This document shows, piece after piece, positions 8,194 to 64,000 of a DNA stretch of 64,000 bases. The DNA is from Candidatus Moraniibacteriota bacterium. GTDB lineage: Bacteria; Patescibacteriota; Minisyncoccia; Moranbacterales; UBA2206. A model generated the notes under the pieces. The model saw nothing but the letters and a program-made list of their open reading frames with translations, made no database searches and had not been told where the DNA came from. The position numbers and the translations under genes are program-made. The DNA is taken from positions 12,881 to 76,880 of the forward strand of contig JBAQUL010000010.1 in the NCBI GenBank assembly GCA_049297495.1, read 5' to 3'. The first letter of the stretch is position 1; each line of letters starts with the position of its first letter.

Positions 8194-8204
8194 TCGGAAA
8201 ATGT

Positions 8205-8654: not shown

Positions 8655-8759
8655 ACAATTATTATAGCAAATTATTACCTTAAATTAAAATAGGCCTCAA
8701 AAGCCATTCAAACTTCACCAAAAATCCCACCGTGAGGTATAATTTTTCGCTTTTATATA

Positions 8760-9719
8760 TTATCCCCTTTCCTCTGTTTCGTCAAGGAAATGGCCGAAAT
8801 CTAGAAAATCTTGCGGAAGTGGAGAATTGAACTCATAGCCGTTACCAAAAAGCACAAACTTGATTGACTGCGCATGAAGCAATTGCCTCCTGGCACTATC
8901 AAGACGGTCTATACCTCGCAAAAAGTATTTTTTATCCCCTACGATTGGATGACCAATTGATGTCAAATGCACTCGAATTTGATGCATCCGTCCGGTTTTG
9001 GGTGAAAGTTCCATGAGGGCATATTCATCCCCCAGGGTCCCTAGAGTTCGAAATCCAGTTTCAGCGTCACGAATTTTTGTCCTTGTCTTATGCCCAGCCA
9101 CCACCTGCCGTCTATAATCAGCTGAACGTGCCAAAGCCTTCTTAATCACACCCTCAGCCGGAACGGGCACGCCATACACAATCGCTTGATATTTTTTTTC
9201 AATTTCTTTGTCCTGAAACTGCCTCTTCAACTCTTCAAAAGTTGTCATATTTCTTGCAATCACGATCACACCACTAGTGTCCTTATCTAACCGATGCACA
9301 ATCCCCGGTCGCAACTTTCCTTCCTTCGTACCATCACAAACAGTTTCAGTTTCTGGAAAACTTGCCACTAAATAATTAACCAGAGTATCTTCTTTCCGTG
9401 TATCATCAGGGTGAACCTGCATACCAGCTGGTTTATCAATCACAATAATATTTTCATCGGAAAAAATTATTGGCAATTCCTTTTTAACTTTTGGCAATAT
9501 CACTTTCTCCTCGCTAAATTTAAAATCGAAAGTGATTTCATCATTATTTTTCAAAATATAACCCGACTTCACTTTTTCTTTGTTTACTAAAATTCTCTCT
9601 GCCTTAATTTGTCGAGAAATTTCACTGCGTGTAATTTTCCCATCAAAAAGAATCCCACTACTGAGGAATTTGTCCAATCGCTCACCTGAACTGTCTTTTG
9701 TAATAATTATTTTTTGCAT
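8760..9719 (-). CDS. rluD: RluA-family 23S rRNA pseudouridine synthase (RluD/RluC-like) with N-terminal S4 domain
   Basis: HRLDKDTSGVIVIARN catalytic motif, VIDKPAGMQVHP, and GRMHQIRVHL at the C-terminus. Confidence 0.8.
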   Translation of the reverse strand: MQKIIITKDSSGERLDKFLSSGILFDGKITRSEISRQIKAERILVNKEKVKSGYILKNNDEITFDFKFSEEKVILPKVKKELPIIFSDENIIVIDKPAGMQVHPDDTRKEDTLVNYLVASFPETETVCDGTKEGKLRPGIVHRLDKDTSGVIVIARNMTTFEELKRQFQDKEIEKKYQAIVYGVPVPAEGVIKKALARSADYRRQVVAGHKTRTKIRDAETGFRTLGTLGDEYALMELSPKTGRMHQIRVHLTSIGHPIVGDKKYFLRGIDRLDSARRQLLHAQSIKFVLFGNGYEFNSPLPQDFLDFGHFLDETEERG

Positions 9720-9814
9720 AAATCCATATTAAATTAAACATAGCCCACTAAAAGAAAACAAAAGAATCCATACGGACTCTTGCCTAAAAACACCACTATA
9801 ATACATTACCTGTG

Positions 9815-9898
9815 TGCCCAGAAGAGGACTCGAACCTCCAATCCCTTACGAGAACCAGTTCCTAAGACTGGCGCGTATACCAATTCCGCCATCTGGGC
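9815..9898 (-). tRNA. tRNA-Leu(TAG)
   Basis: Acceptor GCCCAGA/TCTGGGC, anticodon loop CTTAGGA, long variable arm, T-loop GGTTCGAGTCC. Confidence 0.8.
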
Positions 9899-9923
9899 AT
9901 TATTCAGTTTTTTACATTTCTCG

Positions 9924-10007
9924 TGGGGATGGAGAGATTTGAACTCTCACGACCTTGCGATCATAGCGTTCTGAACGCTACGTGTATACCAATTTCACCA
10001 CACCCCC
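9924..10007 (-). tRNA. tRNA-Leu(CAG)
   Basis: Acceptor GGGGGTG/CATCCCC, anticodon loop TTCAGAA, long variable arm, T-arm GAGAG-TTCAAAT-CTCTC. Confidence 0.8.
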
Positions 10008-29896: not shown

Positions 29897-29969
29897 GGGC
29901 CTGTAGCTCAGTTGGTAGAGCGCTTCCATGGCATGGAAGAGGCAAGGAGTTCGATCCTCCTCAGGTCCA
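29897..29969 (+). tRNA. tRNA-Ala(GGC)
   Basis: Acceptor GGGCCTG/CAGGTCC with the G3:U70 Ala identity pair; anticodon loop ATGGCAT; T-loop GAGTTCGATCCTC. Confidence 0.75.
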
Positions 29970-30017
29970 CACGATAAAACTGGCCAATTAGCTCAGTCTT
30001 GCCCCGCACCATTTTAT

Positions 30018-30091
30018 GGGTCTGTAGCTCAGTTGGTTAGAGCGCTACATTCACATTGTAGAGGTCTCCAGTTCGAGCCTGGACAGACCCA
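30018..30091 (+). tRNA. tRNA-Val(CAC), enclosed by a perfect 15-bp inverted repeat (30002-30016 / 30096-30110)
   Basis: Acceptor GGGTCTG/CAGACCC, anticodon loop TTCACAT, T-arm TCCAG-TTCGAGC-CTGGA. Flanks CCCCGCACCATTTTA ... TAAAATGGTGCGGGG. Confidence 0.8.
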
Positions 30092-30215
30092 CTCGTAAAA
30101 TGGTGCGGGGTGAAGTTAGAGCGTACGATTCACATTCGAGGATGTCACTGGTCCGCCTGCCCGCCTTTGGAGGAAACCCAGTATCGTCCACAACAAGCAT
30201 CCATTCATTATCCAA

Positions 30216-30287
30216 GCCTTCATAGCTCAATGGATAGAGCAAATCCGTCCTAAGGATGAGATGTAGGTTCGATTCCTACTGAGGGCA
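30216..30287 (+). tRNA. tRNA-Arg(CCT)
   Basis: Acceptor GCCTTCA/TGAGGGC, D-arm TAGCTCAATGGATAGAGCA, anticodon loop GTCCTAA, T-arm GTAGG-TTCGATT-CCTAC. Confidence 0.7.
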
Positions 30288-36699: not shown

Positions 36700-36775
36700 G
36701 GGCGTGTAGCTCAGTTGGTTAGAGCGCTACATTGACATTGTAGAGGTTTCAGAGGTTCGAGTCCTCTCACGCCCA
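36700..36775 (+). tRNA. tRNA-Val(GAC)
   Basis: Acceptor GGGCGTG/CACGCCC, anticodon loop TTGACAT, T-arm AGAGG-TTCGAGT-CCTCT; slightly long variable region. Confidence 0.7.
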
Positions 36776-36785
36776 CAAATAAAAA

Positions 36786-36857
36786 GGGACCATAGCTCAG
36801 TGGTAGAGCAGGGGACTCATAATCTCTTGGTCGCTGGTTCGAATCCAGCTGGTCCCA
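36786..36857 (+). tRNA. tRNA with CAT anticodon (elongator Met or Ile2/lysidine type; not initiator-like)
   Basis: Acceptor GGGACCA/TGGTCCC, anticodon loop CTCATAA, T-arm GCTGG-TTCGAAT-CCAGC. Anticodon stem lacks the three consecutive G:C pairs of initiator tRNAs. Confidence 0.7.
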
Positions 36858-39772: not shown

Positions 39773-40744
39773 CTATTTCTTCCTCCGCGAATGAAACGCC
39801 TGATGGACTTCTTTTAGTTGTTTATTAGTAACATGTGTATAAACCTGCGTTGTCGTTATCGAGGAATGTCCCAGCATCGCTTGAACGGAGCGAATATCAG
39901 CACCATTAATAAGCAAATCAGTTGCAAAAGAATGGCGCAGAGTGTGAGGGTGGACATCTTTAACGATTCCAGCTTTTACGGCATAGTATTTTACGATTCT
40001 TTGGACTGATCTTGGCGTTAACCTCAAGTTATCCCCGCCTGCAACGCTATGCGTAGCATTGCGGGCAGGCCCGGCTTTTTTGGCATTTTTGCCTTCAAAT
40101 TTCTTGAGTCCGGCAACATCTCGCACAAAAAGCGCTGGATCAACGTCTGTGCGCTTGTCCAGATATCTACCTATCGCTTGCGCGGCAGAGTCAGAAATAA
40201 AGACCACCCGCACCTTATCTCCTTTGCCTCGCACGCTCAACTCTCGCCCCCTAAGATCAATCTTTTCACGATTAATGCCAGTTAACTCTGAAACACGCAA
40301 GCCAGCCGAAAATAATAGCTCTAAGATGGCACGATCACGCAAACTCTTGAGATCTTGCCCGCTTGCCTCAGAAAGAATTCGCTCCACCTCTTCCATCTCC
40401 AAGAAACCTACCTCTCGATTTGATGACCTGCCAATTTCAATTTTTTCGGCCTGTAAGGAGTCTATATCTCTTTTAGCTAGAAATTTGAGAAAACCACGAA
40501 TTGCAATAACATAGTAACCTTGGGTGATTTTTTTAAGCTTTTGCCCAGTTGCGTCTTCATAGCGGTTAAGATAAACACGAAAATTCCTCACAACTTCAGC
40601 TGTAATTTGCTCAGGCTTGGAAATTTTTGACCATTCCAAGAAGCGCCTGAGATAGTGATCATAATTCTCAATTGTTTTTTGAGAACGACCCTTCTCAATC
40701 TCCAGATACTCCAGGAATTGGATCTCAAGTTCTTTGATTTGCAT
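39773..40744 (-). CDS. xerC: Tyrosine site-specific recombinase, XerC/XerD family
   Basis: N-terminal SAM-like core-binding domain; C-terminal catalytic region HTLRHSFATDLLINGADIRSVQAMLGHSSITTTQVYTHV with the catalytic Tyr. Confidence 0.8.
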   Translation of the reverse strand: MQIKELEIQFLEYLEIEKGRSQKTIENYDHYLRRFLEWSKISKPEQITAEVVRNFRVYLNRYEDATGQKLKKITQGYYVIAIRGFLKFLAKRDIDSLQAEKIEIGRSSNREVGFLEMEEVERILSEASGQDLKSLRDRAILELLFSAGLRVSELTGINREKIDLRGRELSVRGKGDKVRVVFISDSAAQAIGRYLDKRTDVDPALFVRDVAGLKKFEGKNAKKAGPARNATHSVAGGDNLRLTPRSVQRIVKYYAVKAGIVKDVHPHTLRHSFATDLLINGADIRSVQAMLGHSSITTTQVYTHVTNKQLKEVHQAFHSRRKK

Positions 40745-41023
40745 ATCCCTATTCTATACCAAAATCATGATTGACAAAAATCCCCAAGCAGGCTATACTG
40801 TCTAGCAGGTAAAAATTAGGGTTTTAGGACTAAGGTTTGCTCAGTTATTCCCCCGGGAAAAGGCAAAATTCTTGCTAAAACCATATGAAAGGTTAATTGT
40901 ATTAGTAAACTAATCCAAACAACTTCTCGAACTATCTTTTATAGAAAAAATTTAAAGACCCTTGTTACTAAAGTTTTTTTGGCACAAAAAAACATCGTAA
41001 CCTTCATAAAAAAGCGCCGAACG

Positions 41024-42079
41024 GTGAAACTTTTGCATATTTTCAGAAATTATTCCTCATTTGTTGTTGTCGCTTCAAGTGCGCTTTTAGTTTCCGCTAC
41101 CAACCTTGCTGCCGGACAAAACTCCAGTGGTTTTTTATTTGGCTACCTTGGTAGTAGCGACAATTACGCCAGTCCTTTGGAAAATAAGATGTTTTTGACA
41201 GCAAACAAGAAAACCTCTCTCGCTCTCGCACCCCTTCTGGAAGCAGAAGCTGTTCCCAATCCAATGTTGAAAGCCACAGAAGATCCAACTGATCCAATGC
41301 TTATGCAAGGAAATGCCCTGGTTTGCGAAAACAGCCCTGTCTTAAAGGATCCAGAGGAAGATGGTGGTGTTGTTATCTATGAAGTAAAGGAAGGTGACAC
41401 CGTGAGCTCAATTGCCGCCGCTAACAATGTCAGCACCAATACATTGCTATGGGCCAACGCCATCGATGATGTAAACTCCATTATGCCAGGAGACAAGATA
41501 TTCATCCTCCCAGTGTCTGGATTAGCCTATACAGTCAAAAATGGCGATGATATCAACAGCATTGCCAAGGAATTCAAGGCTGATAAGGATAAAATCATAG
41601 CATTTAATTCACTCCATCTTGATGGAGAATTAAAAGTCGGAGAAACAATAACGATTCCGGATGGACAAAAAGAACTTCCCAAGCCAAAACCAGCAGAAAA
41701 CCCAATTGGAATCGCTCAACGGCCATATGAAACATTCGAATCAGCTGGTAAGACTCTGAGTGGTTCTGGCGGAACCAGCCACAGATTCCCCTATGGTTAT
41801 TGCACTTGGTATGTAGCTCAGAAGAGAAACGTTCCTTGGGGTGGCAATGCTGGAACATGGCTATATCATGCCAAGTCTGCTGGATACGCAACTGGAAAAA
41901 CTCCAACTGTCGGATCAATTATGGTTTCTTCTGAGTCTTGGTGGGGACACGTTGCCCTCGTGACCAGTGTCAGTGCTGACAGTTTTACTGTTTCGGAAAT
42001 GAATTATAAAGGCTGGGCCAAAAAATCCACCCGAACGATTGCCAAGGGTAGCCGGGTAATTAAGGGCTTTATTCGCTAG
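41024..42079 (+). CDS. Secreted peptidoglycan hydrolase: two LysM domains + C-terminal CHAP domain
   Basis: LysM (YEVKEGDTVSSIAAANNVSTNTLLWANAI; YTVKNGDDINSIAKEFKADKDKIIAFNSL); CHAP (YGYCTWYVAQKR...GHVALVTSV). GTG at 41024 gives a signal peptide MKLLHIF...; the ORF-track start at 40979 is TTG. Confidence 0.7.
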   Translation: MKLLHIFRNYSSFVVVASSALLVSATNLAAGQNSSGFLFGYLGSSDNYASPLENKMFLTANKKTSLALAPLLEAEAVPNPMLKATEDPTDPMLMQGNALVCENSPVLKDPEEDGGVVIYEVKEGDTVSSIAAANNVSTNTLLWANAIDDVNSIMPGDKIFILPVSGLAYTVKNGDDINSIAKEFKADKDKIIAFNSLHLDGELKVGETITIPDGQKELPKPKPAENPIGIAQRPYETFESAGKTLSGSGGTSHRFPYGYCTWYVAQKRNVPWGGNAGTWLYHAKSAGYATGKTPTVGSIMVSSESWWGHVALVTSVSADSFTVSEMNYKGWAKKSTRTIAKGSRVIKGFIR

Positions 42080-42177: not shown

Positions 42178-44346
42178 TCATTCTATTTTCCTAATCGGCG
42201 CCAAAGAGCTGGAAAGTTTTTTGAGACCAACCGCCTTGAAGGCCACGGTAATGATGTCGCCCTGAGAAGAGATAACTAAGCCTTCGCCGAATTTTTCATG
42301 CTTAATTCTTTCTCCGCCTTTATAGCAGACTTTCATTTCAGTGAGAGTTGTTTTTTTTCGAGCAGTTGCGTATTTTTCAACACAAGCATTTATCAGTGAA
42401 TTTTCAGCATTCTCAACCAATTCCGCCGGGATATCATCCAAAAAGCGCGAAGGAGCATTGATTTGCGTTGAGCCATAGATTGTGCGCATTTTTGTGAAAA
42501 GCAGATAAACTTTTTGTTTGGCACGCGTAATTCCCACATACATCAAGCGCCGCTCTTCTTCCATTTCCACTTCTGAAAGCATACTACGTGAATGAGGCAA
42601 GATTCCTTCTTCTAAGCCAATAATAAAAACGTACTGAAACTCAAGACCCTTAGCGCTATGGAGAGTCATCAGATGGACAGCTTCACTCGATTGATCAATA
42701 TTGTCAGTATCGGCCACTAACGCCACTTCTTCTAGGAAAAGTCGCAAACCCTCGCCTTCAGAAAATTTGTCATATTTCTTTGCAACCGTTAGCAGTTCCC
42801 GCACATTTTCAGCGCGCATTTGCCCTTCATCGGTACCATCAAGCAATTGCTGCTCATAACCACTTTTTAAAAAAACATTCTGAATAAAATCTGCAAGAGT
42901 CAAATCAGCCCTTACTTCGTGCATTTTGCTTATGAACTGACAAAATTTGACTATACTATCAAGCTTAGTCTTTATGATTTTTGAGCCATTATCCTTGGAT
43001 TGATCCGACAATATGAGTCCCGCTGCTATCAAATCAAGCGCATTAATCTTCGCGAAAGACACCCACTTCTCAACTGTTTTATTGCCAATCCCTCTCTTTG
43101 GCTCATTAATAATTCTTTCCAGGGAGATTTCATCATTAAAATTCTCAATTAAACGCAAATATGCGATAATATCTTTGATTTCTTTTCTTTGATAAAATTT
43201 CAAACCCCCAATGATTCTATAGGGAATCGAATCGCCAAGCAGCGCCTCTTCAATAATTCTTGATTGAGCATTTGTTCTATAAAGAACAACGATATTATTT
43301 AACTTTACGCCCTTATTTCGAAGGGCCACCACCTCAGAAACAATAAATTGTGCTTCATCACTCTCATCATCTGCCTCATAAGAAGCGAGCAAGTGCCCAG
43401 TCTTGTTCTCAGTCCAAATTTTTTTGTCTTTGCGGTTGATATTTTTGGAAATTACACCATAGGCCGCATCAAGAATCTGCTGAGTTGAGCGATAATTCTG
43501 TTCCAATTTTACCACTTTCGCCGCCGGATAATCTTTTTCAAAATCGAGAATGTTTTGAATATTAGCTCCGCGCCAAGAATAAATCCCTTGCCAATCGTCA
43601 CCCACGACGCAAATATTTTTATGCTTATCCGCCAGCATTTTAATCAATGTATATTGAGCATGATTCGTATCCTGATACTCATCCACCATAATATAGCGGA
43701 AAATATTTTGATATTTCTCCAACACTTCTGGATATGTGCGAAAAATCTGCACCAAAAGCATGAGGATGTCATCAAAATCCAAAGCATTATTTCGTTTAAG
43801 TCTTTCTTGATAAGCAATATAAATTTTCGACACAACATCTTCCCAATATCCACCAGTTGCTGCTTGAAACATTTTTGCGTCAATCAATTCATTCTTAGCC
43901 TTAGAGATTGCCCCTAAAACACTCTGCGGACGAAACTGGGTCGGATCAATGCCCAGTTCTTTCATCGTTTTTTTTACAAGACTCTGCTGATCTTGAGAAT
44001 CAAAAATGTTAAAATTGCTTTCAAATCCAATTTTTCCAATTTCGCAGCGGAGAAGTCTTGCACAAATTGAATGAAAAGTGCCTACTAACGGAAGATTGCC
44101 CTTAAAATTATGCTCTGTAAGCAACTGAGCAATTCGTTCCTGCATCTCTCTCGCTGCTTTATTAGTAAAGGTCACGGCCAGAATTTGCCCAGGCCTCACG
44201 CCTTTATCGCAAATCAAGTAGGCCGTGCGAAAAGTCAATGCCCGCGTTTTACCCGAACCAGCACCCGCAATGACGAGCACGGGGCCCTCGGTTGTTTCCA
44301 CTGCTTCTCTTTGCGAAATATTAAGATTTTCCAAAATATTAGTCAT
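42178..44346 (-). CDS. pcrA: ATP-dependent DNA helicase PcrA/UvrD (superfamily 1)
   Basis: LNISQREAV, Walker A AGAGSGKTRALT, helicase motifs through VGITRAK. Start chosen at MTNILENL (ATG 44346); the ORF-track extends 20 aa further. Confidence 0.85.
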   Translation of the reverse strand: MTNILENLNISQREAVETTEGPVLVIAGAGSGKTRALTFRTAYLICDKGVRPGQILAVTFTNKAAREMQERIAQLLTEHNFKGNLPLVGTFHSICARLLRCEIGKIGFESNFNIFDSQDQQSLVKKTMKELGIDPTQFRPQSVLGAISKAKNELIDAKMFQAATGGYWEDVVSKIYIAYQERLKRNNALDFDDILMLLVQIFRTYPEVLEKYQNIFRYIMVDEYQDTNHAQYTLIKMLADKHKNICVVGDDWQGIYSWRGANIQNILDFEKDYPAAKVVKLEQNYRSTQQILDAAYGVISKNINRKDKKIWTENKTGHLLASYEADDESDEAQFIVSEVVALRNKGVKLNNIVVLYRTNAQSRIIEEALLGDSIPYRIIGGLKFYQRKEIKDIIAYLRLIENFNDEISLERIINEPKRGIGNKTVEKWVSFAKINALDLIAAGLILSDQSKDNGSKIIKTKLDSIVKFCQFISKMHEVRADLTLADFIQNVFLKSGYEQQLLDGTDEGQMRAENVRELLTVAKKYDKFSEGEGLRLFLEEVALVADTDNIDQSSEAVHLMTLHSAKGLEFQYVFIIGLEEGILPHSRSMLSEVEMEEERRLMYVGITRAKQKVYLLFTKMRTIYGSTQINAPSRFLDDIPAELVENAENSLINACVEKYATARKKTTLTEMKVCYKGGERIKHEKFGEGLVISSQGDIITVAFKAVGLKKLSSSLAPIRKIE

Positions 44347-44505
44347 AAAAGTATTGTAGCATAGGAAAGAAGTTTGAGATAAGTCAAAAACCAATTCTCT
44401 TGCCAAAAAGCCGATTATAGTATATCGTTAATTTATAATAATTTATCACTAGCAAACATCAGTTGACGTGAAATATCGCAACTTCTGTTTTGCCTCAAAA
44501 GCCTT

Positions 44506-55322: not shown

Positions 55323-56933
55323 TTAACCAAAAATAATTTTCACCGCGAGAAGGCCATAAAGAGCGACCACGGCCAAAATCCACCAAAAGACACGCCTTGG
55401 GTGGATTTTTTTGTTGATCGTAATCAAAAAAGCCGCACTACCAAACAAAATCGCCCACCAAAAAAGCCGAAATTCATTAAGGAAAAAAATGCTTAACATG
55501 AATGAGATAAAGATCCCTGATGCCACGATTAGGCGTCCTTTTTCTTCTCCAAAAATTACTGGGACAGTGTGTACGCCGTCTTTTTTGTCGCCTTCAATAT
55601 CTTTAAAATCTTTTATTGGCAATGAAAATGTATATGCGATGATTAGCAGAAAAATCACGCGCCAAGACAGATTAGTGATGGTTTGATCTGGTGAGAAAAA
55701 AATAAAGCCGGAAAAAAACACTGTGAGCAATGTTAATGCGCTGAGCAAAGAAGCAATGAGCGCAAATCTTTTCAAACGAAATGGTTCCGCTGAATAAAAC
55801 CAGGCCATAATCTGATACACCAAAAACAATATCCCAAACTTATAGTGCACCAATAGCCCACCAACAAGCGAAAGAAAAAACATAATAGCACCCAACTGCG
55901 CATATTGACTAAAAGTGAAAATGCCCTTTTGCAGCGGTCTCTCTGGATTGGAAAGCATATCCACGCGATAATCAAAAATATCATTAACGACTACCGACGC
56001 CTCCCAGGCAAGAAGCACGCTACTCAAAATCACAACTACAGCCAAAAAGGAGAATAGATTTAAATTAAAATTTTCCGGATACGTAATAAGTCCTATCCCA
56101 AGCCCTAAAAACAGTAAGCCCCCATGGAAGATAACCTGTGGATAACGAAAATTGCGTATCACTGACCAGAACATTTTCGATTCTGACTTCCAAAAGAAAT
56201 AGCCTAAAATAGCCAAACTGAGAGGAAAATAGATTAAATTCAAATTGTGGGCCAAGGTATAAGCCGGATCAGAAAGTGCAATACCAAGATACTGAGCCTT
56301 GGCGAAGAATTGAACGATTTCAAATGAATGCAGAGAAAAAACTGCTTTTTGCTCAATCAAGCGAAAAAAATAATAGCACAGCGAAGGAAAAGCAGCCATA
56401 AAAAATAATGCGGAATATGTGCCAAATGCAGCAAAAATGCTCCTTGAGACTTTTTTCGTCTTTATTCCAACCAAAGCGGTCATTACCAATATCCCAATAA
56501 TAAAAGTGATTTTCGTGCCAAAATACACTACTCCGGAAGGAAGATGGCCAAAAATAGTCACATATTGCCAAAACAAATCAACTGGTGTGCTTATGAGATA
56601 GAAACTCCAAAACACTTCGCTTCCCGTTCGAATGAGATCAAAAATAGGCGGAAAAATGATTGCCAGTGACGCCCAAAGCATAAGATAGGCAAGAATAAAC
56701 GGCTTTTTTTTAAGAATTACACTCAAGACAAGCCAAACAAGAGCAAAGGAGAGAAAAAAGAAAAGTAAGTTATGAATATCCATTACTAAATCAAACAAGG
56801 GAGAATTTGATTTCGCGATAAATTTGTCTATATAGAGACGCAAAGCAATGATCCCAGAAAAATTCAGACACCAAAAAGCCGGATCAATCTTTTTGCCCAA
56901 AATATTATCAATAAATTTCACCAGTTTATCCAT
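55323..56933 (-). CDS. Fusion membrane protein: N-terminal polytopic domain of unknown function + C-terminal UbiA-family prenyltransferase domain
   Basis: UbiA motif NDIFDYRVD (NDxxDxxxD) and a second Asp-rich region (DFKDIEGDKKDG) in the C-terminal half. The ORF-track start at 57014 is TTG; first in-frame ATG at 56933. Confidence 0.55.
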   Translation of the reverse strand: MDKLVKFIDNILGKKIDPAFWCLNFSGIIALRLYIDKFIAKSNSPLFDLVMDIHNLLFFFLSFALVWLVLSVILKKKPFILAYLMLWASLAIIFPPIFDLIRTGSEVFWSFYLISTPVDLFWQYVTIFGHLPSGVVYFGTKITFIIGILVMTALVGIKTKKVSRSIFAAFGTYSALFFMAAFPSLCYYFFRLIEQKAVFSLHSFEIVQFFAKAQYLGIALSDPAYTLAHNLNLIYFPLSLAILGYFFWKSESKMFWSVIRNFRYPQVIFHGGLLFLGLGIGLITYPENFNLNLFSFLAVVVILSSVLLAWEASVVVNDIFDYRVDMLSNPERPLQKGIFTFSQYAQLGAIMFFLSLVGGLLVHYKFGILFLVYQIMAWFYSAEPFRLKRFALIASLLSALTLLTVFFSGFIFFSPDQTITNLSWRVIFLLIIAYTFSLPIKDFKDIEGDKKDGVHTVPVIFGEEKGRLIVASGIFISFMLSIFFLNEFRLFWWAILFGSAAFLITINKKIHPRRVFWWILAVVALYGLLAVKIIFG

Positions 56934-57165
56934 AAGTTCGGTTCGCGTATTCGTTTGTTCAATTATACAGAAAGACCACAAAAAAATAAAGGCTTCAAAA
57001 AACAAAAACACCAACCCTTTTGTCGATTAATCTGAGTTAATAAGCAGCAAATATCAAAAAATATATATGCTTACTTTTTGAAACAAAAGTAACTTTAAAT
57101 TTGATTTCGAAAAATCCATTTTGGCCCTTCACAGAGTGACAACTATTGTGGTATAATTTCGCTAT

Positions 57166-58284
57166 ATGAAAATAAAAAATATTAGCCTTCCCTTTTTCAT
57201 TCTCGCAATTCTGATTGTCGCCAGTTTTGCTTTTTATGTTGGCGCCCAAAGTAATTCCACTGGAAGTATTTTTCTTGATAGCGACCAAGATGGTCTTTCC
57301 AATGAAGAAGAGGTGGTTTACAGTACAAATCCTAATAATCCCGATACCGACGGGGATGGATATTCTGATGGAGCTGAAGTGCGCAGCGGATACAACCCAA
57401 CAAAAAAAGCTCCGGGAGACAAGCTCACCGGATTCACGACAGCTTCAAAAGCAGACTCTTCCGGTATTGCTGGCGCCAATAACCCATCCGGCGCTGTTTT
57501 GGGAGATAACTCAGAAAACAACCTCACAATGGATATTGCTCAAAAAATAAGTGAGCTTGCTGAAAAATCATCTACCGATAGCACTCCAATTTCTCTAGAT
57601 GAATTGCAAGCAACAATCAACCCCGCTCTTGATGCCAGCGCAATCTCAGAAGATGACCTTCCACAGATTGACCCGAAGGACATAAAAATAAAAAAACAAA
57701 ACTACGCAAATCTTAGCGCTGAAAAAGCCAAAGCCAGAAAAAAAGAAGATTGTGTTGATTATTTGACTGCCATAGCCTACATCTTCACCAGCAACTCACC
57801 TGAGCCAATCACAAAACTGCCAGATGCATCTGATATGATTTCAAAAATCACAAAAACAATTACAACAGCTGTCACCACGCAAAGCTCGGCTGGACTAAAA
57901 GAGCTCGTTACTAGCCAGCAAAAAGTCGTGGAACAATTAAAGGCCGTGGAAGTTCCTGAAGATTTGGTGGACATCCACACTAAGGCACTGCGCTTCGCAC
58001 TATATTCAGAAGGCTTGGGTTCGCTTTTTCAAGCGAAAGCAGATGACCCGATGACCAGTATCGCCAATCTTTCCAAATTACAAGGATTCATTTCTGTTTT
58101 TAGTGATTTTTCCACAGAAGCGCAAAGTAAATTCTCGGAATATGGTTTAACCTACGATGAAAACGTTCAGAAAAAATTGAAAAGCTATGGCATTGATGCG
58201 CCAAAAGATTTGAGTGGGCTAGAGTCATTATTAAAAGTTGACACAACGGCAACCACCACAGAGACGACTACGACGACTCCATAA
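57166..58284 (+). CDS. Secreted protein with thrombospondin-type-3-like calcium-binding repeats
   Basis: Signal peptide + TM (ISLPFFILAILIVASFAFYVGA); repeats DSDQDGLSNEEE...NPDTDGDGYSDGAEV; Thr-rich C-terminus. Confidence 0.5.
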   Translation: MKIKNISLPFFILAILIVASFAFYVGAQSNSTGSIFLDSDQDGLSNEEEVVYSTNPNNPDTDGDGYSDGAEVRSGYNPTKKAPGDKLTGFTTASKADSSGIAGANNPSGAVLGDNSENNLTMDIAQKISELAEKSSTDSTPISLDELQATINPALDASAISEDDLPQIDPKDIKIKKQNYANLSAEKAKARKKEDCVDYLTAIAYIFTSNSPEPITKLPDASDMISKITKTITTAVTTQSSAGLKELVTSQQKVVEQLKAVEVPEDLVDIHTKALRFALYSEGLGSLFQAKADDPMTSIANLSKLQGFISVFSDFSTEAQSKFSEYGLTYDENVQKKLKSYGIDAPKDLSGLESLLKVDTTATTTETTTTTP

Positions 58285-58326
58285 TTGAAAAGTGGCGCCT
58301 TTCACAAATAAAAAAGCAAAGCTGCA

Positions 58327-59382
58327 ATGAGTCTCCGTGTCCTTAGGAACTATATCAAAAAAATGCAAGAAAACTCCAAAAAACAAAAAAACTATTTTTC
58401 AAAAAAAATCACGGCTTTCTGGCTTTCTTTTGCGCTGTTTTTTCTTGCACTTTCCGCTCCACAAAAAGCCTGTGCCTGGGACGCCATTCCCGGGGCAATC
58501 TTTAAACAAGCCACGGAAGAAATCTCCTATGCTATTAAAGGCATGATGATGGGAGCACTGAAACAAGCGGCAATTAAAATGCTTTCCAAACAAATGGATC
58601 GCTTCATTTCAGGAGTTTCCGGAAACGGCGCAAAATTTATCACTAATTGGGAAGACTATTTGATTGACAATCCGACAAGAAACGCCCAACGCTATGCCAA
58701 TGACTATGTCAGTCGCGCTCTTTCTGGCAAAGGCAGCGTCAGCTATAAAAAATCCAGCAATTCTGTTTTAGGCGCCAGTACAATTGCCGGAGAAGGCTTT
58801 GGGAAAGAGGCGGTACTCGGCGATGCAGCTGAAAGCATAAACTATGCCGAATCAATCCAAACCATGGCCCAAAATGAAATTCTTGAACCAAAAGAATGGC
58901 AATTAAGCTATCCTGATGATCCAGCGAATATGTTTGAAAGTGACACGCTTGCCAATATGAACCTCTACATTAATGGAGATGGTAATGGCGGAAATACAAT
59001 CTGGGACGCCAAATCAGCGATTGCCAAAGAATATCAAACAAAACTGGACAATGAAAAAAGCCAAGCCTATGCCGAAGGCGTCTCCGGTCAAGGATTTTTG
59101 GGTGAAAAAATTGATGGAATGGTGGCAAAGCCAGGTATACTCTTCAAGGAAATGGAGGCTAACACAGAAAACTTGCCAAACCTCGCCATTTCTAACGCGA
59201 CGAGTATTGGAGAGTTGGTCGCCGCCACTGTTTCGAAAGCAATAACAGGAGTTATCAATAAAACTGTTAGCGGAGTGGAAAAAGCTATCAATAAAGAAGT
59301 CAGCAAAGTCACAGATAAGGCTGTCAAAGAAGTCAATAAAGAAGTCAACTCCTATGGACCAGGAGCGTTATATAAAAAATGA
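58327..59382 (+). CDS. Secreted hypothetical protein (351 aa)
   Basis: N-terminal hydrophobic segment ITAFWLSFALFFLALSAPQKACA (signal peptide). Stop overlaps the next gene's start (ATGA). Confidence 0.45.
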   Translation: MSLRVLRNYIKKMQENSKKQKNYFSKKITAFWLSFALFFLALSAPQKACAWDAIPGAIFKQATEEISYAIKGMMMGALKQAAIKMLSKQMDRFISGVSGNGAKFITNWEDYLIDNPTRNAQRYANDYVSRALSGKGSVSYKKSSNSVLGASTIAGEGFGKEAVLGDAAESINYAESIQTMAQNEILEPKEWQLSYPDDPANMFESDTLANMNLYINGDGNGGNTIWDAKSAIAKEYQTKLDNEKSQAYAEGVSGQGFLGEKIDGMVAKPGILFKEMEANTENLPNLAISNATSIGELVAATVSKAITGVINKTVSGVEKAINKEVSKVTDKAVKEVNKEVNSYGPGALYKK

Positions 59383-61613
59383 TTATGTTGTTTTTCTCAA
59401 AATTGAAACAAAAAATATCAAAAACAATATTCACGAGATCACGAAAAAGTTATCTGGCTATTTTTGGCCTGTCTCTTTTTTTCGTTTTCTTCTATTCACA
59501 CAATGCCCAAGCTGGTCCTGTTGACTGGGCGGTTGGAGCAATGGTCGAGACACTACTAAAGGCAGTCCTTCAGTTTTGCGCGATGCTCCTCTCTATGGCA
59601 GAAACTATTTTCAAATGGATTGTGAACGCAGACAATATGAAAGCAATTATGGACAACGAGGTTGTCTATTCGACATGGCGCACCGTTCGAGACTTCTTCA
59701 ATATTGCTTTCATCATGGTGCTTCTTTTCTCCGCCTTTGCAACCATTTTTCAGGCTCCAACCAACTTTAATTACAAAAAAATTCTGCTTAACCTAGTGAT
59801 CATGGCGCTTTTGGTCAATTTCAGCTATCCAATAGCACGCTTCATTGTTGACGCATCAAACATGATGATGTTTGGCATCCTCAAAAATCTCGACGGTTCA
59901 AATTCATTCATGGAAATTATTCAAAAAAGTAAACTCGCCGACATATTTACATCTGGCAAAGACAGTACTGATTTACTCTATTTGCTTTCAGCAATTATTT
60001 TTACGTTCATTTACGCCGTCACACTACTCGTGATTGCAGTTCTTTTGACAATCAGAACAATCGCCATCACCATCTATATCATCTTTTCACCAATCGCTTT
60101 CATCGGACCGATTGTTCCAGGCACAGCCGTTGCCTCCGCTGGCAATGATTGGTGGAAGGAATTTATGAAATATTGTTTCTCTGGTCCAACAATGATTTTC
60201 ATGCTTTTTATTGCGACCAGAATGATGGTTGCCGTGACAGATTCACAAATTAAAATGGGTGAGATAGCGATGACACAGGTCCGAGGCGACACCAGCAGTA
60301 ATGCTGTCGGGAACTTAATCACAAGTGCTTCTAAGTTTTCTCTACCAATTATTATTCTTTGGATTGGCATTATTCAAGCCCAAAAATCCGGTATCGCTGG
60401 CGCTGGGGCTGTTGTTGGAATGGGAACAAAAGCACTAAATAAAGCAGGGAAGTGGGCAGCAGGAGCACCAACTGGAGCTGCTTGGTGGGCAGCTAAAAAG
60501 ACTGGGGTGCCTGGCGGAGTGCAGCAGAAATGGGCTAACTGGAAAAAAGGTGGCATTTTGGGATCTGACAGACAAGCAGAGCGAGAGGCGAGAGTCGCTG
60601 GAGCTCTTGGCGTACCGAGAGTTACAGATCAGATGTATATGAAAAAACTCAAAGAAGCTGGAGAGAGTCATGATATGCCAAATATGGGCGTTAACGCGCT
60701 ACGCGAACTATCAAGAGGTGGTGATAGATATGAAAGTGCAGCTGCAATCCAAGAACTCATGAATCAAAATGCATTCGACATGAATAACGGGGATGACGCA
60801 GCTGCATATCAAAGAATGCAACAAGAATTTGGAACAACTAGTCAAGTATTTAGTCAGATCAATAACAAGCTCAAAGCATTTGACCCCGTTTCTGCCTTTG
60901 CACACATAACAGACGCACTTGAAAGACAAGCCAGAACGGTAGAATTTATGAATAGCAACAAATTCAAAGCAGAAAATTTAGGAGCGAGATCTCTCGGTAA
61001 TTCTAATTTTATGGAAACAGCTTTCAAGGAAGGAGCAATAACTAATGATGATCTTGAAAAATTAAGAAAAAAGAGCCCAACACATGAAAGAAACATACTA
61101 TCCTCACTAAGAACCGCCGCAAATAATTTTGGTGACCCTGGACAACTTCAGAGCAACATAGATGGATTAAGAGAACTTCCGCAATCAGATGAAAGGGACG
61201 CGCAAATAACACTACTTGATAACGACCTACGAAGAGCCAGAAGTATCCACACGGCCCACCTTGCTCAAACTGGAACATTCCATACCTCTCTTTCTGACGA
61301 TGCCAGCCTCAGTGATGCAGAAAGAAACATGAGAGCAGACTCAAGAACGCATATCATCTCAAGATTAAATGAAGATACAGCAAAAAGAACAAGAATTGAT
61401 ACAGGAACGCCAGGGGGAGATGAAAACCTAAGAACAGAATTTGCACAAAATTTGAATTCAAACAAATTCAAAGCGATTATGACAAAAATGGACAACGATA
61501 GCGTTGTGGCAGGTATCCTCGATACCGCACGAAAGGTTGGCGGACCTCCGGGTTCGGCAGGCGCAAGAAACGCACAAAAAGCAATCGAAGATGTCGATTT
61601 AAAGCAAAGGTAA
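59379..61613 (+). CDS. VirB6/TrbL-like polytopic membrane protein of a type IV secretion / conjugation-like system, with a long hydrophilic C-terminal domain
   Basis: Signal peptide, then at least 6 TM helices (about residues 40-320), then a roughly 400-aa hydrophilic tail. Architecture and position just upstream of a VirB3/VirB4-like pair fit VirB6/TrbL. Not motif-proven. Confidence 0.4.
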   Translation: MIMLFFSKLKQKISKTIFTRSRKSYLAIFGLSLFFVFFYSHNAQAGPVDWAVGAMVETLLKAVLQFCAMLLSMAETIFKWIVNADNMKAIMDNEVVYSTWRTVRDFFNIAFIMVLLFSAFATIFQAPTNFNYKKILLNLVIMALLVNFSYPIARFIVDASNMMMFGILKNLDGSNSFMEIIQKSKLADIFTSGKDSTDLLYLLSAIIFTFIYAVTLLVIAVLLTIRTIAITIYIIFSPIAFIGPIVPGTAVASAGNDWWKEFMKYCFSGPTMIFMLFIATRMMVAVTDSQIKMGEIAMTQVRGDTSSNAVGNLITSASKFSLPIIILWIGIIQAQKSGIAGAGAVVGMGTKALNKAGKWAAGAPTGAAWWAAKKTGVPGGVQQKWANWKKGGILGSDRQAEREARVAGALGVPRVTDQMYMKKLKEAGESHDMPNMGVNALRELSRGGDRYESAAAIQELMNQNAFDMNNGDDAAAYQRMQQEFGTTSQVFSQINNKLKAFDPVSAFAHITDALERQARTVEFMNSNKFKAENLGARSLGNSNFMETAFKEGAITNDDLEKLRKKSPTHERNILSSLRTAANNFGDPGQLQSNIDGLRELPQSDERDAQITLLDNDLRRARSIHTAHLAQTGTFHTSLSDDASLSDAERNMRADSRTHIISRLNEDTAKRTRIDTGTPGGDENLRTEFAQNLNSNKFKAIMTKMDNDSVVAGILDTARKVGGPPGSAGARNAQKAIEDVDLKQR

Positions 61614-61626
61614 GTCAAAATTTAGC

Positions 61627-62802
61627 ATGAACAATTATTTAGAAAAAAGAGATAAGCTTCCCAACCTCCTGAAGGAATTTCTCATGTCCGATACTCCGAG
61701 ATATGAAGTAGAGAGGGTTTGTTTTATGTATGCACTAAAAGAACAGGAAATACGCATTATTTCCCATCCAATTGCCCTCATATTTATTGGTGAATTAAAA
61801 TTAGCTGACTATCCAACACTAATTTTCAAGGAGTTGAATCAATCAGAGCAAATCATCTATGGCATTTCATTTGAAATTAACCAAAGAATCTTTGCTCGCT
61901 TTCCAGATTTCTTCAAAGACTCGCAAGACCTACTGGAAGAATGGTTTAGAAAAAAAGCCAACCCGCTTATAAGCGAAGATGCTGCTTGGCAAAAAGTTCT
62001 GGAACGAGAACCGGAGATCCAAGAAAGGGAGCGAGAGAGGGAAGCAGAAAGAAAAGAGGAAATGAAAAAAATGGAAATATACAAGGCTCAATTGGAAAAC
62101 CTGCCAATCGACGCTGCCTTGGAAAAATATCCTGAATTGGGAGAGCAACTGATTACATCCAATCATATCAAGCTGAAAATGTTTCCTGAGCCAGTCCGAC
62201 CATCAATTAAAAACTGGCTTTCTGATTACACCTTCACCATTGGCATTAGTAACCATGACCCAATCATACGTGGCGACTATCTGTTTAAGGGTGACAATGC
62301 GGCGTCTCTCTCCACTCAAGATCGCGAGAAGCTAACCGATATCATCAAATCATTTGAAGAAAAAACCCCCCTCACGATCAATACCAAAACGAAGCAAGTA
62401 GTCTTTATTGCTCCCGAAAGAAAAGAAACGCCACGAGCCCCAATGAGATCAGCCGTTAACCCAAATATTGCTCGTAGAGATTTGGAGCCAACCGAAATCA
62501 GAAGGGGACAAGAAAACTATCCGCAAAGAGAAATCTTGCCTCAAACACAAAAAAGATTCCAATCAGACGAAGAAAGAATCAGTGCTTGGAGAAAGGATTT
62601 GCCAGAAAAAAGAGTGCAAGCCGATGAAAGCCGGAATGAAAATATCCGATTTTCTTCCCCTCAAACATTCTCCACCGAAAAACCACCAGAAACTCCTCGC
62701 CCAGCCACGCCCAACTACCAAGCCCAAAAACCAGTTGCCAGAATTAATTATGCCACGCCAAGACCAATGCCAAGAAATGTGGTAAACTTGAGAGAGGAAT
62801 AA
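61627..62802 (+). CDS. Hypothetical protein with Glu/Arg-rich coiled segment and Pro-rich C-terminus
   Basis: Clean ORF with ATG start; EREPEIQEREREREAERKEEMKK; C-terminal PPETPRPATPNYQAQKP. Confidence 0.4.
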   Translation: MNNYLEKRDKLPNLLKEFLMSDTPRYEVERVCFMYALKEQEIRIISHPIALIFIGELKLADYPTLIFKELNQSEQIIYGISFEINQRIFARFPDFFKDSQDLLEEWFRKKANPLISEDAAWQKVLEREPEIQEREREREAERKEEMKKMEIYKAQLENLPIDAALEKYPELGEQLITSNHIKLKMFPEPVRPSIKNWLSDYTFTIGISNHDPIIRGDYLFKGDNAASLSTQDREKLTDIIKSFEEKTPLTINTKTKQVVFIAPERKETPRAPMRSAVNPNIARRDLEPTEIRRGQENYPQREILPQTQKRFQSDEERISAWRKDLPEKRVQADESRNENIRFSSPQTFSTEKPPETPRPATPNYQAQKPVARINYATPRPMPRNVVNLREE

Positions 62803-62901
62803 CCTCATGCAGCATGCAGCATGAAACATATAACAAAAAACTAGCGAATATGCTATCTCTTGTTGTCTGCTTCATGTTTCATGCTTCATGTTTCATGCTT
62901 C

Positions 62902-63300
62902 ATGATATTCAACGTCCCACAATTTATTGATATTGAAGACAAGATTGTCGGTCCACTCACCGCCAAGCAACTCGGCTGGATTGCAGCCGGTGCGGTCCTT
63001 GCATTGCTTAGTTATGCAATGTTCGACAAATCAACCTTCATCGTTTCTGCCCTTATTCTCGCAGTAATTTTTGGAGCGCTTGCCTTTTATCGTCCCTATA
63101 ACCAACCCCTCATTAAGTTTATCCTATCCTCAATCGCATTTATTATCCGCCCAAAAATGTATATTTGGAGACGAACGCCAGAAAAAGTTCAAAGAACCGT
63201 CGCTAAGAAAGAAGACAATGCGCCAATAATCACCAGAAAGAAGTTCGATTCCCAGAAAGTCTCTGACATCTCAGCTCTTCTTGATCACCGAAGTCGCTAG
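62902..63300 (+). CDS. PrgI/VirB3-like small two-TM membrane protein
   Basis: MIFNVPQFIDIEDKIVGPLTAKQLGWIAAGAVLALLSY... resembles the conserved N-terminal block of PrgI-family proteins that sit immediately upstream of VirB4 ATPases. The ORF-track start at 62860 is TTG, inside a tandem repeat. Confidence 0.4.
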   Translation: MIFNVPQFIDIEDKIVGPLTAKQLGWIAAGAVLALLSYAMFDKSTFIVSALILAVIFGALAFYRPYNQPLIKFILSSIAFIIRPKMYIWRRTPEKVQRTVAKKEDNAPIITRKKFDSQKVSDISALLDHRSR

Positions 63301-63409
63301 ATTACAAATTACTAAAAACATACATAGAAGCAAACGAAACAATCAGCTCAAGCCAAATACACGCGCTACCCAACCAAAAAGCGGGTAAATCTGCGCTAAA
63401 AACAAAAAT

Positions 63410-64000
63410 ATGGAAAAACTTTATTCGCAAAAACTCACAAAACAAGCTGCCACATCGCCGACGCAACAATATCTGGATGTAGCAGAGGTAAAGGAAGATG
63501 TTATTGTCCTCAAAAATGGTTCAATGCGTGTTGTACTCGCCGTTTCAGCCATCAACTTCGATCTCAAGGCCACAGACGAACAAGAAGCAATCATCAGTCA
63601 GTATCAAAACTTCCTCAACTCAGTTGATTTCCCACTGCAAATCCTGATCAGCTCACGAAAATTAAATATCGACACCTATATTGAGTTCCTAACGACCAAA
63701 GAGAAGCAGCAAAAAACTGAACTGATGCGCTTGCAAATATCTGAATATAAAAACTTTATCACGCAACTTGTCTCCATGTCTGATATCATGGATAAGGCTT
63801 TTTATCTAATTGTACCGTTTTCTCCGATTGAAAATGAGGAAAAAAACTTTTTCAGTAATTTTTCCAATATGATTAACCCAAAAAGAGGTATTTTGGAAAA
63901 AAGAGAAACATTTGAGACATACAAAAGTCAACTTTATCAAAGAGTCGACCATCTGACTGCCGGTCTTTCTGGTATTGGCGTCAAACTCGTCCCACTAAAA
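63410..64000 (+). CDS. virB4: VirB4/TrbE/CagE-family conjugation ATPase, N-terminal 197 aa (gene continues past the right window edge)
   Basis: ATG at 63410. VIVLKNGSMRVVLAVSAINFDLKATDEQEAIISQYQNFLNSVDFPLQILISSRKLNIDTYIE matches the conserved VirB4 N-terminal block. The open frame reaches the window end. Confidence 0.6.
   Translation, partial: MEKLYSQKLTKQAATSPTQQYLDVAEVKEDVIVLKNGSMRVVLAVSAINFDLKATDEQEAIISQYQNFLNSVDFPLQILISSRKLNIDTYIEFLTTKEKQQKTELMRLQISEYKNFITQLVSMSDIMDKAFYLIVPFSPIENEEKNFFSNFSNMINPKRGILEKRETFETYKSQLYQRVDHLTAGLSGIGVKLVPLK

What the first reader, a model, noticed from the sequence alone, without database searches (positions are those of the whole stretch)
57166..64000. Compact type IV secretion / conjugation-like module at the window edge
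The window ends in a co-oriented run of genes: two secreted proteins (57166-58284 with thrombospondin-3-like Ca-binding repeats; 58327-59382), a 744-aa polytopic protein with VirB6/TrbL-like architecture (59379-61613, start overlapping the previous stop), a Pro-rich hypothetical (61627-62802), a small two-TM PrgI/VirB3-like protein (62902-63300) and the N-terminus of a VirB4-family ATPase (63410 onward). PrgI-like followed by VirB4 is the conserved core of Gram-positive-type conjugation and T4SS systems. In ultrasmall episymbiotic bacteria such systems are proposed to mediate DNA uptake or host interaction, but the secreted repeat proteins encoded upstream are not a described part of them and may be substrates or adhesins.
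Basis: partly seen in the sequence, partly recalled or inferred. Interest (0 to 1): 0.7.

Follow-up and report, generated by a model that had tools for sequence, protein, structure and literature searches.

The report
Patescibacterial type IV secretion gene cluster

Summary

One correction. The ORF at 63410 is not the start of VirB4. It is a separate 228-aa TrsD-like protein, homologous to the VirB4 N-terminal domain, and ends 96 nt past the window. An identical longer contig shows a 615-aa VirB4 ATPase 18 nt downstream, with Walker A and B motifs. After it come a small membrane protein, a weakly CPBP-like membrane protein, a 955-aa surface protein, a pilin-SLT fusion and a second pilin-like gene.

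PrgI-TrsD-VirB4 is intact in all 80 related loci fetched. No relaxase or coupling protein was found in the cluster or the window. This matches the Patescibacteria T4SS of Wang 2023 and Quiñonero-Coronel 2025.

The two secreted upstream proteins occur only in the 15 closest Moranbacteria loci, so a role in the T4SS is unproven. The 391-aa protein belongs to a large unannotated family, usually found directly upstream of PrgI. Interest is modest.

The parts
57128..57157 (+). Promoter-like site (TTCACA, 18-nt spacer, TATAAT with upstream TG; 11 of 12 matches). It ends 9 nt before the ATG of gene A and is a possible operon promoter.
   Evidence: Consensus scan only. The number of sites in the region is no higher than in shuffles, so this is a lead and not a demonstration.
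57166..58284 (+). Gene A: a 372-aa secreted protein. It has a signal segment, bacterial TSP3 Ca-binding repeats (about residues 34-81), an unannotated C-terminal domain and a Thr-rich tail. It is a lineage-restricted neighbour of the T4SS genes.
   Evidence: ORF. Pfam TSP3_bac scores 50.5 bits against a cutoff of 25. It lies directly upstream of B and C in the 15 loci that have it, and in none of the other 65. A profile search of the PDB found only a match to the TSP3 repeats.
58327..59382 (+). Gene B: a 351-aa secreted or membrane-anchored protein of unknown family (probable true start 58363). Its stop overlaps the start of C.
   Evidence: ORF. No Pfam, NCBIfam or PDB match. Only 33 clusters were found in 5.8 billion proteins; those that carry a source name are labelled Moranbacteria or Parcubacteria, and their locus tags are consecutive with C and D homologues. 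The alignment shows a signal-like N-terminus and the conserved core.
59379..61613 (+). Gene C: a 744-aa 'extended' VirB6-like polytopic membrane protein. It has a signal/anchor segment, 5-6 TM helices (about residues 100-335), a variable Gly/Ala/Lys-rich linker (about 360-410) and a well-folded all-helical C-terminal domain (about 410-744) that is probably cytoplasmic.
61627..62802 (+). Gene D: a 391-aa soluble protein with no TM segment. It has a folded mixed helical/beta N-terminal region (residues 1-265) and a disordered Pro-rich tail. It belongs to a large unannotated Patescibacteria family that usually sits between the VirB6-like gene and PrgI.
62796..62915 (+). Intergenic hairpin built from CATG-containing repeats. 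It spans the D stop to the E start.
   Evidence: RNA fold -35.9 kcal/mol, z = -4.58, and 0 of 200 shuffles fold as well. It is present in L002 and L006 but not in L003 or L004. No Rfam family matches. Its function is unknown.
62902..63300 (+). Gene E: a PrgI/VirB3-like small membrane protein of 132 aa with two adjacent hydrophobic segments.
   Evidence: Pfam PrgI PF12666 scores 45.6 bits against a cutoff of 27, E 1.1e-11. The start at 62902 matches homologue N-termini of the form MIFxVPQFIDIEDK. A homologue lies upstream of TrsD-VirB4 in nearly all related loci that reach that far upstream.
63410..64000 (+). Gene F: a TrsD-like protein (residues 1-197 of 228). It is a stand-alone homologue of the VirB4 N-terminal domain. 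The gene ends at window-equivalent position 64096, and the VirB4 ATPase gene follows at 64115-65962, outside the window.
   Evidence: Translation. NCBIfam hits, all below the full-length cutoffs: VirB4_plasma E 4e-10 (profile positions 93-255), TrsD 1.2e-6, and CD1110 7.4e-5 (profile positions 2-119). Separate TrsD and VirB4 ORFs occur in 79 loci.

Best explanation
The region is the 5' half of the chromosomal Patescibacteria-type type IV secretion (T4SS) locus of a Candidatus Moraniibacteriota (Moranbacteria) genome.

The full cluster, read from an identical longer contig, is A-B-C-D-E-F-G-H-I-J-K-L-(M):
- A, B: two secreted proteins.
- C: extended VirB6.
- D: conserved soluble protein of unknown function.
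- E: PrgI/VirB3.
- F: TrsD.
- G: VirB4 ATPase.
- H: small membrane protein.
- I: weakly CPBP-like membrane protein.
- J: 955-aa surface protein with a C-terminal anchor.
- K: VirB2-like pilin fused to an SLT lytic transglycosylase.
- L: second pilin-like protein.
- M: membrane-anchored protein with a weak beta-propeller-like hit.

Shown here: gene identities, gene order, their conservation, and the absence of a detectable relaxase or coupling ATPase.

Inferred mechanism, by homology with monoderm MPF-FATA systems and the R388 structure:
- VirB4, with TrsD supplying the otherwise missing N-terminal domain, is anchored to the membrane by PrgI/VirB3.
- It sits under a VirB6 channel or platform.
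- The SLT domain opens the cell wall.
- The VirB2-like pilins are extruded as a pilus or conduit towards the host cell.
- Because the DNA-processing parts are missing, the machine most likely exports proteins or builds a host-contact structure, and does not conjugate DNA. This has been argued for Saccharibacteria, where the homologous locus is essential for epibiotic growth.

A and B are lineage-specific, probably co-transcribed secreted proteins. They are candidate adhesins or substrates, but nothing here shows that they use the machine.
For: Component identities:
- PrgI is above the Pfam cutoff.
- VirB4 is above the NCBIfam CD1110 cutoff, covering profile positions 180-734. It hits solved VirB4 4AG5 at E 4.9e-50 and TrwK at 4e-5. 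Walker A and B motifs are present.
- The TrsD-like ORF matches the N-terminal parts of VirB4 profiles, including CD1110 positions 2-119.
- In the K/L family, 41 of 47 members hit Pfam T4SS_pilin, best E 9.2e-22. K itself carries SLT at 23.5 bits against a cutoff of 21.3.

Operon-like layout: intergenic gaps run from -11 to 109 nt, with B/C, I/J and J/K overlapping.

Conservation:
- PrgI-TrsD-VirB4 in all 80 loci.
- D directly upstream of PrgI in 47 of 66 eligible loci.
- C in 38 of 54.
- H in 50 of 70.
- I and J in 36 of 55.

Taxon and context:
- The record titles of the nearest loci name Candidatus Moraniibacteriota.
- Flanking genes are housekeeping, and KsgA lies nearby, as reported for Patescibacteria virB4 loci.
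- GC content is even across the window.
- No relaxase or T4CP domain was found in any cluster gene or in the other window ORFs scanned with Pfam, namely those longer than about 450 aa and neighbours of the LysM-CHAP gene.

Literature:
- PMC12102498 describes TrsD, PrgI, VirB6, VirB2 arrays and relaxase absence.
- PMC10633639 reports essentiality and the absence of coupling protein and relaxase.
- PMC12857230 reviews the system.
Against: - C itself has no significant Pfam or NCBIfam hit, and Foldseek E-values to VirB6 are weak (0.33 and 0.53).
- The TrsD hits and the pilin hits of K and L themselves are all below curated cutoffs.
- No VirB8-like component was identified.
- Everything from VirB4 onward lies outside the window. 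It comes from a contig that is 100% identical over the 14 kb compared.
- No expression or functional data exist for this organism.
- The exported substrate, if any, is unknown.
- A and B are absent from most Moranbacteria loci that have the same C-to-J core.
Confidence: 0.85

Rival explanations
1. The cluster is a functional conjugative element (an ICE or integrated plasmid) that transfers DNA, as its MPF-FATA relatives on pCF10, pGO1 and CTn2 do.
For: The VirB4 scores above the cutoff of the CD1110 family, which is defined on a clostridial conjugative transposon. The PrgI-TrsD-VirB4 order mirrors TrsC-TrsD-TrsE of staphylococcal plasmids (paper). A XerC-like recombinase lies in the window at 39773-40744.
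Against: - No relaxase or VirD4/TcpA-type coupling ATPase was found in any cluster gene or in the other window ORFs scanned with Pfam.
- Flanks are housekeeping genes with conserved synteny across Moranbacteria.
- Base composition is uniform.
- In the published survey, relaxases were found in only 103 of 3,035 Patescibacteria genomes and were rarely near virB4.
Confidence: 0.04
2. The apparatus imports DNA or nucleotides, like the archaeal Ced system or the Helicobacter ComB system, to feed an auxotrophic cell. It does not export proteins.
For: There is a weak partial hit of the VirB4 to the archaeal DNA-import ATPase CedB (E 6.6e-15, far below cutoff). Patescibacteria cannot make nucleotides de novo.
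Against: In Southlakia, comEC deletion abolishes competence but not viability, whereas the T4SS is essential. The essential role there is therefore not ComEC-dependent transformation (review summary). The CedB hit is much weaker than the conjugative VirB4 hits. No CedA-like or ComEC-like partner is present in the cluster.
Confidence: 0.08
3. Genes A and B are simply neighbouring cell-surface genes of this sub-clade and have no functional link to the T4SS.
For: They occur in only 15 of 80 loci, all from the closest relatives. Moranbacteria with the same C-to-J core instead have a LysM-CHAP hydrolase upstream of C. The B family has only 33 clusters. Neither has any T4SS-related domain.
Against: A-B-C adjacency and orientation hold in 15 of the 15 loci that have them, including loci where the upstream UbiA gene is absent. 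B's stop overlaps C's start. The only strong promoter-like site lies upstream of A.
Confidence: 0.4

Closest known systems
Patescibacteria (CPR) T4SS: Southlakia epibionticum SEML1_0006-0019 (Wang et al. 2023, PMC10633639) and the phylum-wide survey by Quiñonero-Coronel et al. 2025 (PMC12102498)
   Same: - It is chromosomal.
- It has a PrgI/VirB3 + TrsD + VirB4 core, a VirB6 homologue, and VirB2-like pilin genes in the cluster.
- A VirB1-type hydrolase lies near virB4, as reported for class Paceibacteria.
- KsgA is nearby.
- There is no relaxase or coupling protein.
   Different: - There are only two pilin-like genes, not a 6-gene array, and one of them is fused to SLT.
- The VirB6 carries a roughly 330-residue folded helical C-terminal domain.
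- Several conserved partners (D, H, I, J, M) and the clade-specific A and B are not named in the parts of the published descriptions that I read.
- Essentiality is untested in this organism.
MPF-FATA conjugative T4SS of monoderms: pGO1/pSK41 TrsC-TrsD-TrsE, pCF10 PrgH-PrgI-PrgJ, and the CTn2 CD1110 family
   Same: - The VirB4 is of the CD1110 type, above cutoff.
- PrgI-family VirB3 is present.
- A separate TrsD-like protein precedes VirB4, as in the pGO1 subclass.
- A polytopic VirB6/PrgH analogue is present.
- A cell-wall hydrolase is in the cluster.
   Different: - No relaxase, no T4CP, no PrgB-like adhesin and no recognisable VirB8-like PrgL/TraM were found.
- VirB2-like pilins are present, which Gram-positive conjugation systems lack.
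- The location is the core chromosome.
VirB6 (TrwI) of the R388 T4SS, PDB 7O3V and 8RTD, and DotA of the Legionella Dot/Icm system, 9NGY
   Different: - Sequence identity is 9%.
- No VirB5 partner was identified.
- C has an extra C-terminal helical domain.
- The envelope is monoderm, so there is no outer-membrane core complex.

Membership tests
Patescibacteria-clade T4SS (MPF-FATA-derived) | VirB4 ATPase with intact Walker A and B motifs, most similar to monoderm (MPF-FATA) VirB4 | tested here: met
   The 615-aa ORF lies just outside the window (L001 14737-16584). It scores 376.9 bits on NCBIfam CD1110 against a cutoff of 325 and hits PDB 4AG5 at E 4.9e-50. AKSGAGKS and LVLVDE are present.
Patescibacteria-clade T4SS (MPF-FATA-derived) | VirB4 falls inside the monophyletic Patescibacteria VirB4 clade | not tested
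   No tree was built. As indirect support, most of the 80 closest genome loci are labelled Patescibacteria, Moranbacteria or Parcubacteria. The rest are labelled only 'bacterium', or Bdellovibrionales or Micavibrio (the last two probably mislabelled bins). VirB4 identities range from 55 to 99%.
Patescibacteria-clade T4SS (MPF-FATA-derived) | Separate TrsD-like gene adjacent to virB4 | tested here: met
   A 228-aa ORF ends 18 nt before virB4. NCBIfam TrsD E 1.2e-6 and VirB4_plasma N-terminal region E 4e-10, both below the full-length cutoffs. Separate ORFs occur in 79 loci.
Patescibacteria-clade T4SS (MPF-FATA-derived) | VirB3/PrgI-family small membrane protein next to virB4 | tested here: met
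   Pfam PrgI scores 45.6 bits against a cutoff of 27.
Patescibacteria-clade T4SS (MPF-FATA-derived) | VirB6-like polytopic membrane protein near virB4 | tested here: met
Patescibacteria-clade T4SS (MPF-FATA-derived) | VirB2-like (T4SS_pilin) genes in the cluster | tested here: met
   K and L themselves are below the Pfam cutoff (14.8 and 16.9-18.1 bits against 26.6). However, 41 of 47 members of their family hit T4SS_pilin, best E 9.2e-22. Both genes lie outside the window.
Patescibacteria-clade T4SS (MPF-FATA-derived) | No relaxase or coupling protein associated with the cluster | tested here: met
   No such domain appears in any of the 13 cluster genes or in the other window ORFs scanned with Pfam. 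The rest of the genome was not searched.
Patescibacteria-clade T4SS (MPF-FATA-derived) | Required for epibiotic growth on a host | not testable with these tools
   This is known only for Southlakia epibionticum (PMC10633639).
Conjugative MPF-FATA T4SS (pCF10, pIP501, pGO1, CTn2) | Relaxase and type IV coupling protein that serve the channel | tested here: not met
   None was detected in the cluster or the window.
Conjugative MPF-FATA T4SS (pCF10, pIP501, pGO1, CTn2) | VirB8-like (PrgL/TraM, NTF2-like) bitopic component | tested here: inconclusive
   No HMM hit in any cluster gene.
Conjugative MPF-FATA T4SS (pCF10, pIP501, pGO1, CTn2) | Peptidoglycan hydrolase (SLT and/or CHAP) in the cluster | tested here: met
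   K has an SLT domain at 23.5 bits against a cutoff of 21.3. A LysM-CHAP gene sits upstream of C in 18 other Moranbacteria loci, and its ortholog is at window 40979-42079.

The most novel reading that the evidence does not exclude
Probability: 0.12. Interest if true: 0.6.

Novelty: new member of a known kind. Interest (0 to 1): 0.3.

Why it matters
The Patescibacteria T4SS is currently the only T4SS reported to be essential for the growth of the bacterium that carries it, and what it transports is unknown. This locus adds no new principle. It does give a compact, well-conserved Moranbacteria version with a clear parts list:
- an extended VirB6;
- a split TrsD/VirB4;
- a pilin-SLT fusion;
- a large unannotated soluble partner family (D);
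- two clade-specific secreted proteins (A and B).

These are concrete candidates for the missing substrate-recognition and host-contact functions.

Tried and rejected
- A and B: profile searches of the PDB gave nothing beyond the TSP3 repeat.
- I tested whether the roughly 400-aa gene upstream of C in other Moranbacteria is a diverged A or B. hhalign probabilities were below 1%. It is a LysM-CHAP hydrolase.
- The TrsD profile did not reach solved VirB4 N-terminal domains.
- The PHROGs hit of the TrsD-like ORF to a family labelled 'terminase large subunit' (E 4e-8) was not pursued. I treat it as a probable VirB4-N-like or mis-labelled family. Nothing phage-like surrounds it.
- The weak CPBP/Rce1 hit of gene I was not adopted. 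The family alignment has no invariant His or EExxxR motif.
- Rfam found only tRNAs in the window.
Full report
**Observation.**
- A, 57166-58284 (372 aa).
- B, 58327-59382 (351 aa).
- C, 59379-61613 (744 aa). Its ATG overlaps B's stop.
- D, 61627-62802 (391 aa).
- E, 62902-63300 (132 aa).
- An ORF open from 63410 to the end of the window.

The minus-strand ORFs in the region are short and lie inside these genes. Each plus-strand ORF has many length-conserved homologues. These are therefore real genes.

**Direct family tests.**
- A carries bacterial TSP3 repeats (Pfam 50.5 bits, cutoff 25).
- E is a PrgI-family protein (45.6 bits, cutoff 27).
- B, C and D have no significant Pfam or NCBIfam hit.
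- The partial last ORF gives weak hits to the N-terminal parts of VirB4 models and to TrsD.

**Extending the contig.** The exact C protein is on a 31-kb Logan contig that is 100% identical to the window over the 14 kb compared. It shows the following:
- The ORF at 63410 is a complete 228-aa gene that ends in TAG. An 18-nt spacer separates it from a 615-aa ORF.
- The 615-aa protein is a bona fide VirB4. It scores 376.9 bits on NCBIfam CD1110 (cutoff 325), covering profile positions 180-734. Pfam finds the TraG P-loop domain at E 1e-31. It hits the solved VirB4 ATPase domain 4AG5 at E 4.9e-50 and R388 TrwK at 4e-5. Walker A (AKSGAGKS) and Walker B (LVLVDE) are present.
- The 228-aa protein matches positions 2-119 of the same CD1110 model and the TrsD model.

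So the VirB4 N-terminal domain is encoded as a separate TrsD-like protein. The split is not an assembly error, because separate TrsD and VirB4 ORFs are present in 79 related loci.

**Downstream genes.**
- H: a 185-aa membrane protein.
- I: a 225-aa polytopic protein with only a weak Rce1/CPBP hit. The family alignment has no invariant His or EExxxR motif.
- J: a 955-aa protein with a signal peptide and a C-terminal TM anchor.
- K: a 315-aa pilin-like N-terminus fused to an SLT domain (23.5 bits, cutoff 21.3).
- L: a second pilin-like protein.
- M: an approximately 380-aa membrane-anchored protein with a weak DUF5050 hit.
- Two convergent O-antigen-ligase-like genes then mark the end of the cluster.

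K and L score below the T4SS_pilin cutoff themselves. However, 41 of 47 members of their family hit it, best E 9.2e-22.

**Is C a VirB6?** The direct HMM test failed, but several lines agree.
- Eight of 44 diverse homologues hit Pfam TrbL/VirB6 (best E 2.1e-7), and most carry a precomputed TrbL_3 hit.
- An AlphaFold2 model built on the family alignment is confident (mean pLDDT 83).
- Foldseek lists R388 VirB6 chains with probability 0.98 and 0.90 but poor E-values.

C has 5-6 TM helices and a Gly/Ala/Lys-rich linker. That linker is the fastest-diverging stretch between close relatives: 18-35% identity, against 85-95% in the membrane core. C then has a well-folded helical domain (residues ~410-744, pLDDT above 90). 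From the positive-inside rule I infer that this domain is cytoplasmic. C is therefore an 'extended VirB6'.

**Context and conservation.** The record titles of the closest genome loci name Candidatus Moraniibacteriota.

Across 80 loci anchored on VirB4:
- PrgI-TrsD-VirB4 is found throughout.
- The C-D-E-F-G-(H)-I-J block is shared by about 45 Moranbacteria loci.
- K, L and M usually follow.

A and B are found only in the 15 closest loci, always as A-B-C. B's family has just 33 clusters. In 18 other Moranbacteria loci the gene upstream of C is instead a LysM-CHAP hydrolase, unrelated to A or B. The window's ortholog of that hydrolase lies 17 kb upstream, at 40979-42079, beside a XerC-like recombinase and UvrD.

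**No DNA-processing parts.** No relaxase or coupling ATPase was found in any cluster gene or in the other window ORFs scanned with Pfam, which were ORFs longer than about 450 aa and neighbours of the LysM-CHAP gene. Flanking genes are housekeeping (ComM-like Mg chelatase, a G5/DPBB protein, KsgA, a UbiA-family protein). Base composition is even.

**Comparison with the literature.** This is the system described in three papers.
- Quiñonero-Coronel et al. 2025 (PMC12102498) found VirB4 in 2,417 of 3,035 Patescibacteria genomes, forming a clade nested in MPF-FATA. TrsD was the most abundant associated component. The cluster also has PrgI/VirB3, VirB6 and VirB2-like pilins. VirB1 is linked to virB4 in Paceibacteria, KsgA is frequently nearby, and relaxases are almost always absent.
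- Wang et al. 2023 (PMC10633639) showed that the homologous locus is essential for epibiotic growth of Southlakia. They noted the pilins and the missing coupling and relaxase proteins.
- A 2025 review summarises this work (PMC12857230).

The window's locus meets every compositional feature I could test. The phylogenetic placement of VirB4 was not tested.

**Mechanism.**

Shown: gene identities, gene order, conservation, and the lack of DNA-processing genes.

Inferred from homologous systems:
- VirB4, with TrsD as its detached N-terminal domain, docks through PrgI/VirB3 under a VirB6 platform.
- SLT (and perhaps the displaced LysM-CHAP enzyme) opens the wall.
- The VirB2-like pilins form a pilus or conduit.
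- The output is protein export or host contact, not conjugation.

The roles of D, H, I, J and M are unknown, and so are those of A and B. A and B may be substrates or adhesins, or they may be mere neighbours. I put about 0.4 on the last option.

1. The last ORF is TrsD, not the start of VirB4.
2. The composition is not conjugative.
3. The system is already published.

It is a new member of a known kind, and interest is modest (0.3).

Noticed in passing
window 40979-42079 (+), with 39773-40744 (-) and 42178-44406 (-): This is a LysM+CHAP peptidoglycan hydrolase. Its orthologs (45-57% identity) sit immediately upstream of the VirB6-like gene in 18 other Moranbacteria loci. Here it lies 17 kb from the T4SS cluster, beside a XerC-like recombinase and UvrD. 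That implies a rearrangement in this lineage, and it may be a displaced T4SS-associated wall hydrolase.
   Followed up: partly
window 62796-62915 (+): A strong hairpin made of CATG-containing repeats lies between D and the PrgI start (-35.9 kcal/mol, z -4.58). It is present in L002 and L006 and absent in L003 and L004. No Rfam family matches. It could be a translational or transcriptional control element, or a repeat insertion.
   Followed up: partly
window 57128-57157 (+): A near-consensus extended -10 promoter-like site ends 9 nt before the ATG of gene A, which would give a leaderless or very short-leader transcript.
   Followed up: no
window 55323-57014 (-): This is a UbiA-family prenyltransferase whose UbiA domain covers only residues 309-532 of 563. 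The N-terminal ~300 residues are an additional polytopic region with no family hit. It is transcribed divergently from the T4SS cluster and is syntenic with it in most close relatives.
   Followed up: no
window 60450-60700 (residues ~360-440 of gene C): The Gly/Ala/Lys-rich linker between the VirB6 membrane core and the C-terminal helical domain diverges much faster than its surroundings. Identity to the closest species is 18-35%, against 85-95% in the core. Nucleotide similarity to L002 is lost from 60457 to 61627.
   Followed up: partly
L001 17185-20726 (outside the window, downstream of VirB4): Genes I and J have overlapping stop and start codons. I is polytopic and weakly CPBP/Rce1-like, but its family alignment has no invariant His or EExxxR motif. 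J is a 955-aa secreted protein with a C-terminal TM anchor and no family hit. The pair is conserved in 36 of 55 eligible loci. It may be a surface protein with a dedicated membrane partner.
   Followed up: partly
L001 20716-21663 (outside the window): Gene K fuses a VirB2-like T4SS_pilin domain to an SLT lytic transglycosylase in one polypeptide. Other members of the same family carry SLT_3 or peptidase M15/VanY domains instead.
   Followed up: partly
window 63410-64000: The TrsD-like ORF hits a PHROGs family labelled 'terminase large subunit' (phrog_2666, E 4e-8), although it has no P-loop and no phage context. This is probably a labelling artefact or a shared VirB4-N-like domain.
   Followed up: no
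window 3696-10007, 29897-30287, 36700-36857: Thirteen tRNA genes lie in three groups, including seven spread between 7738 and 10007 on the minus strand.
   Followed up: no
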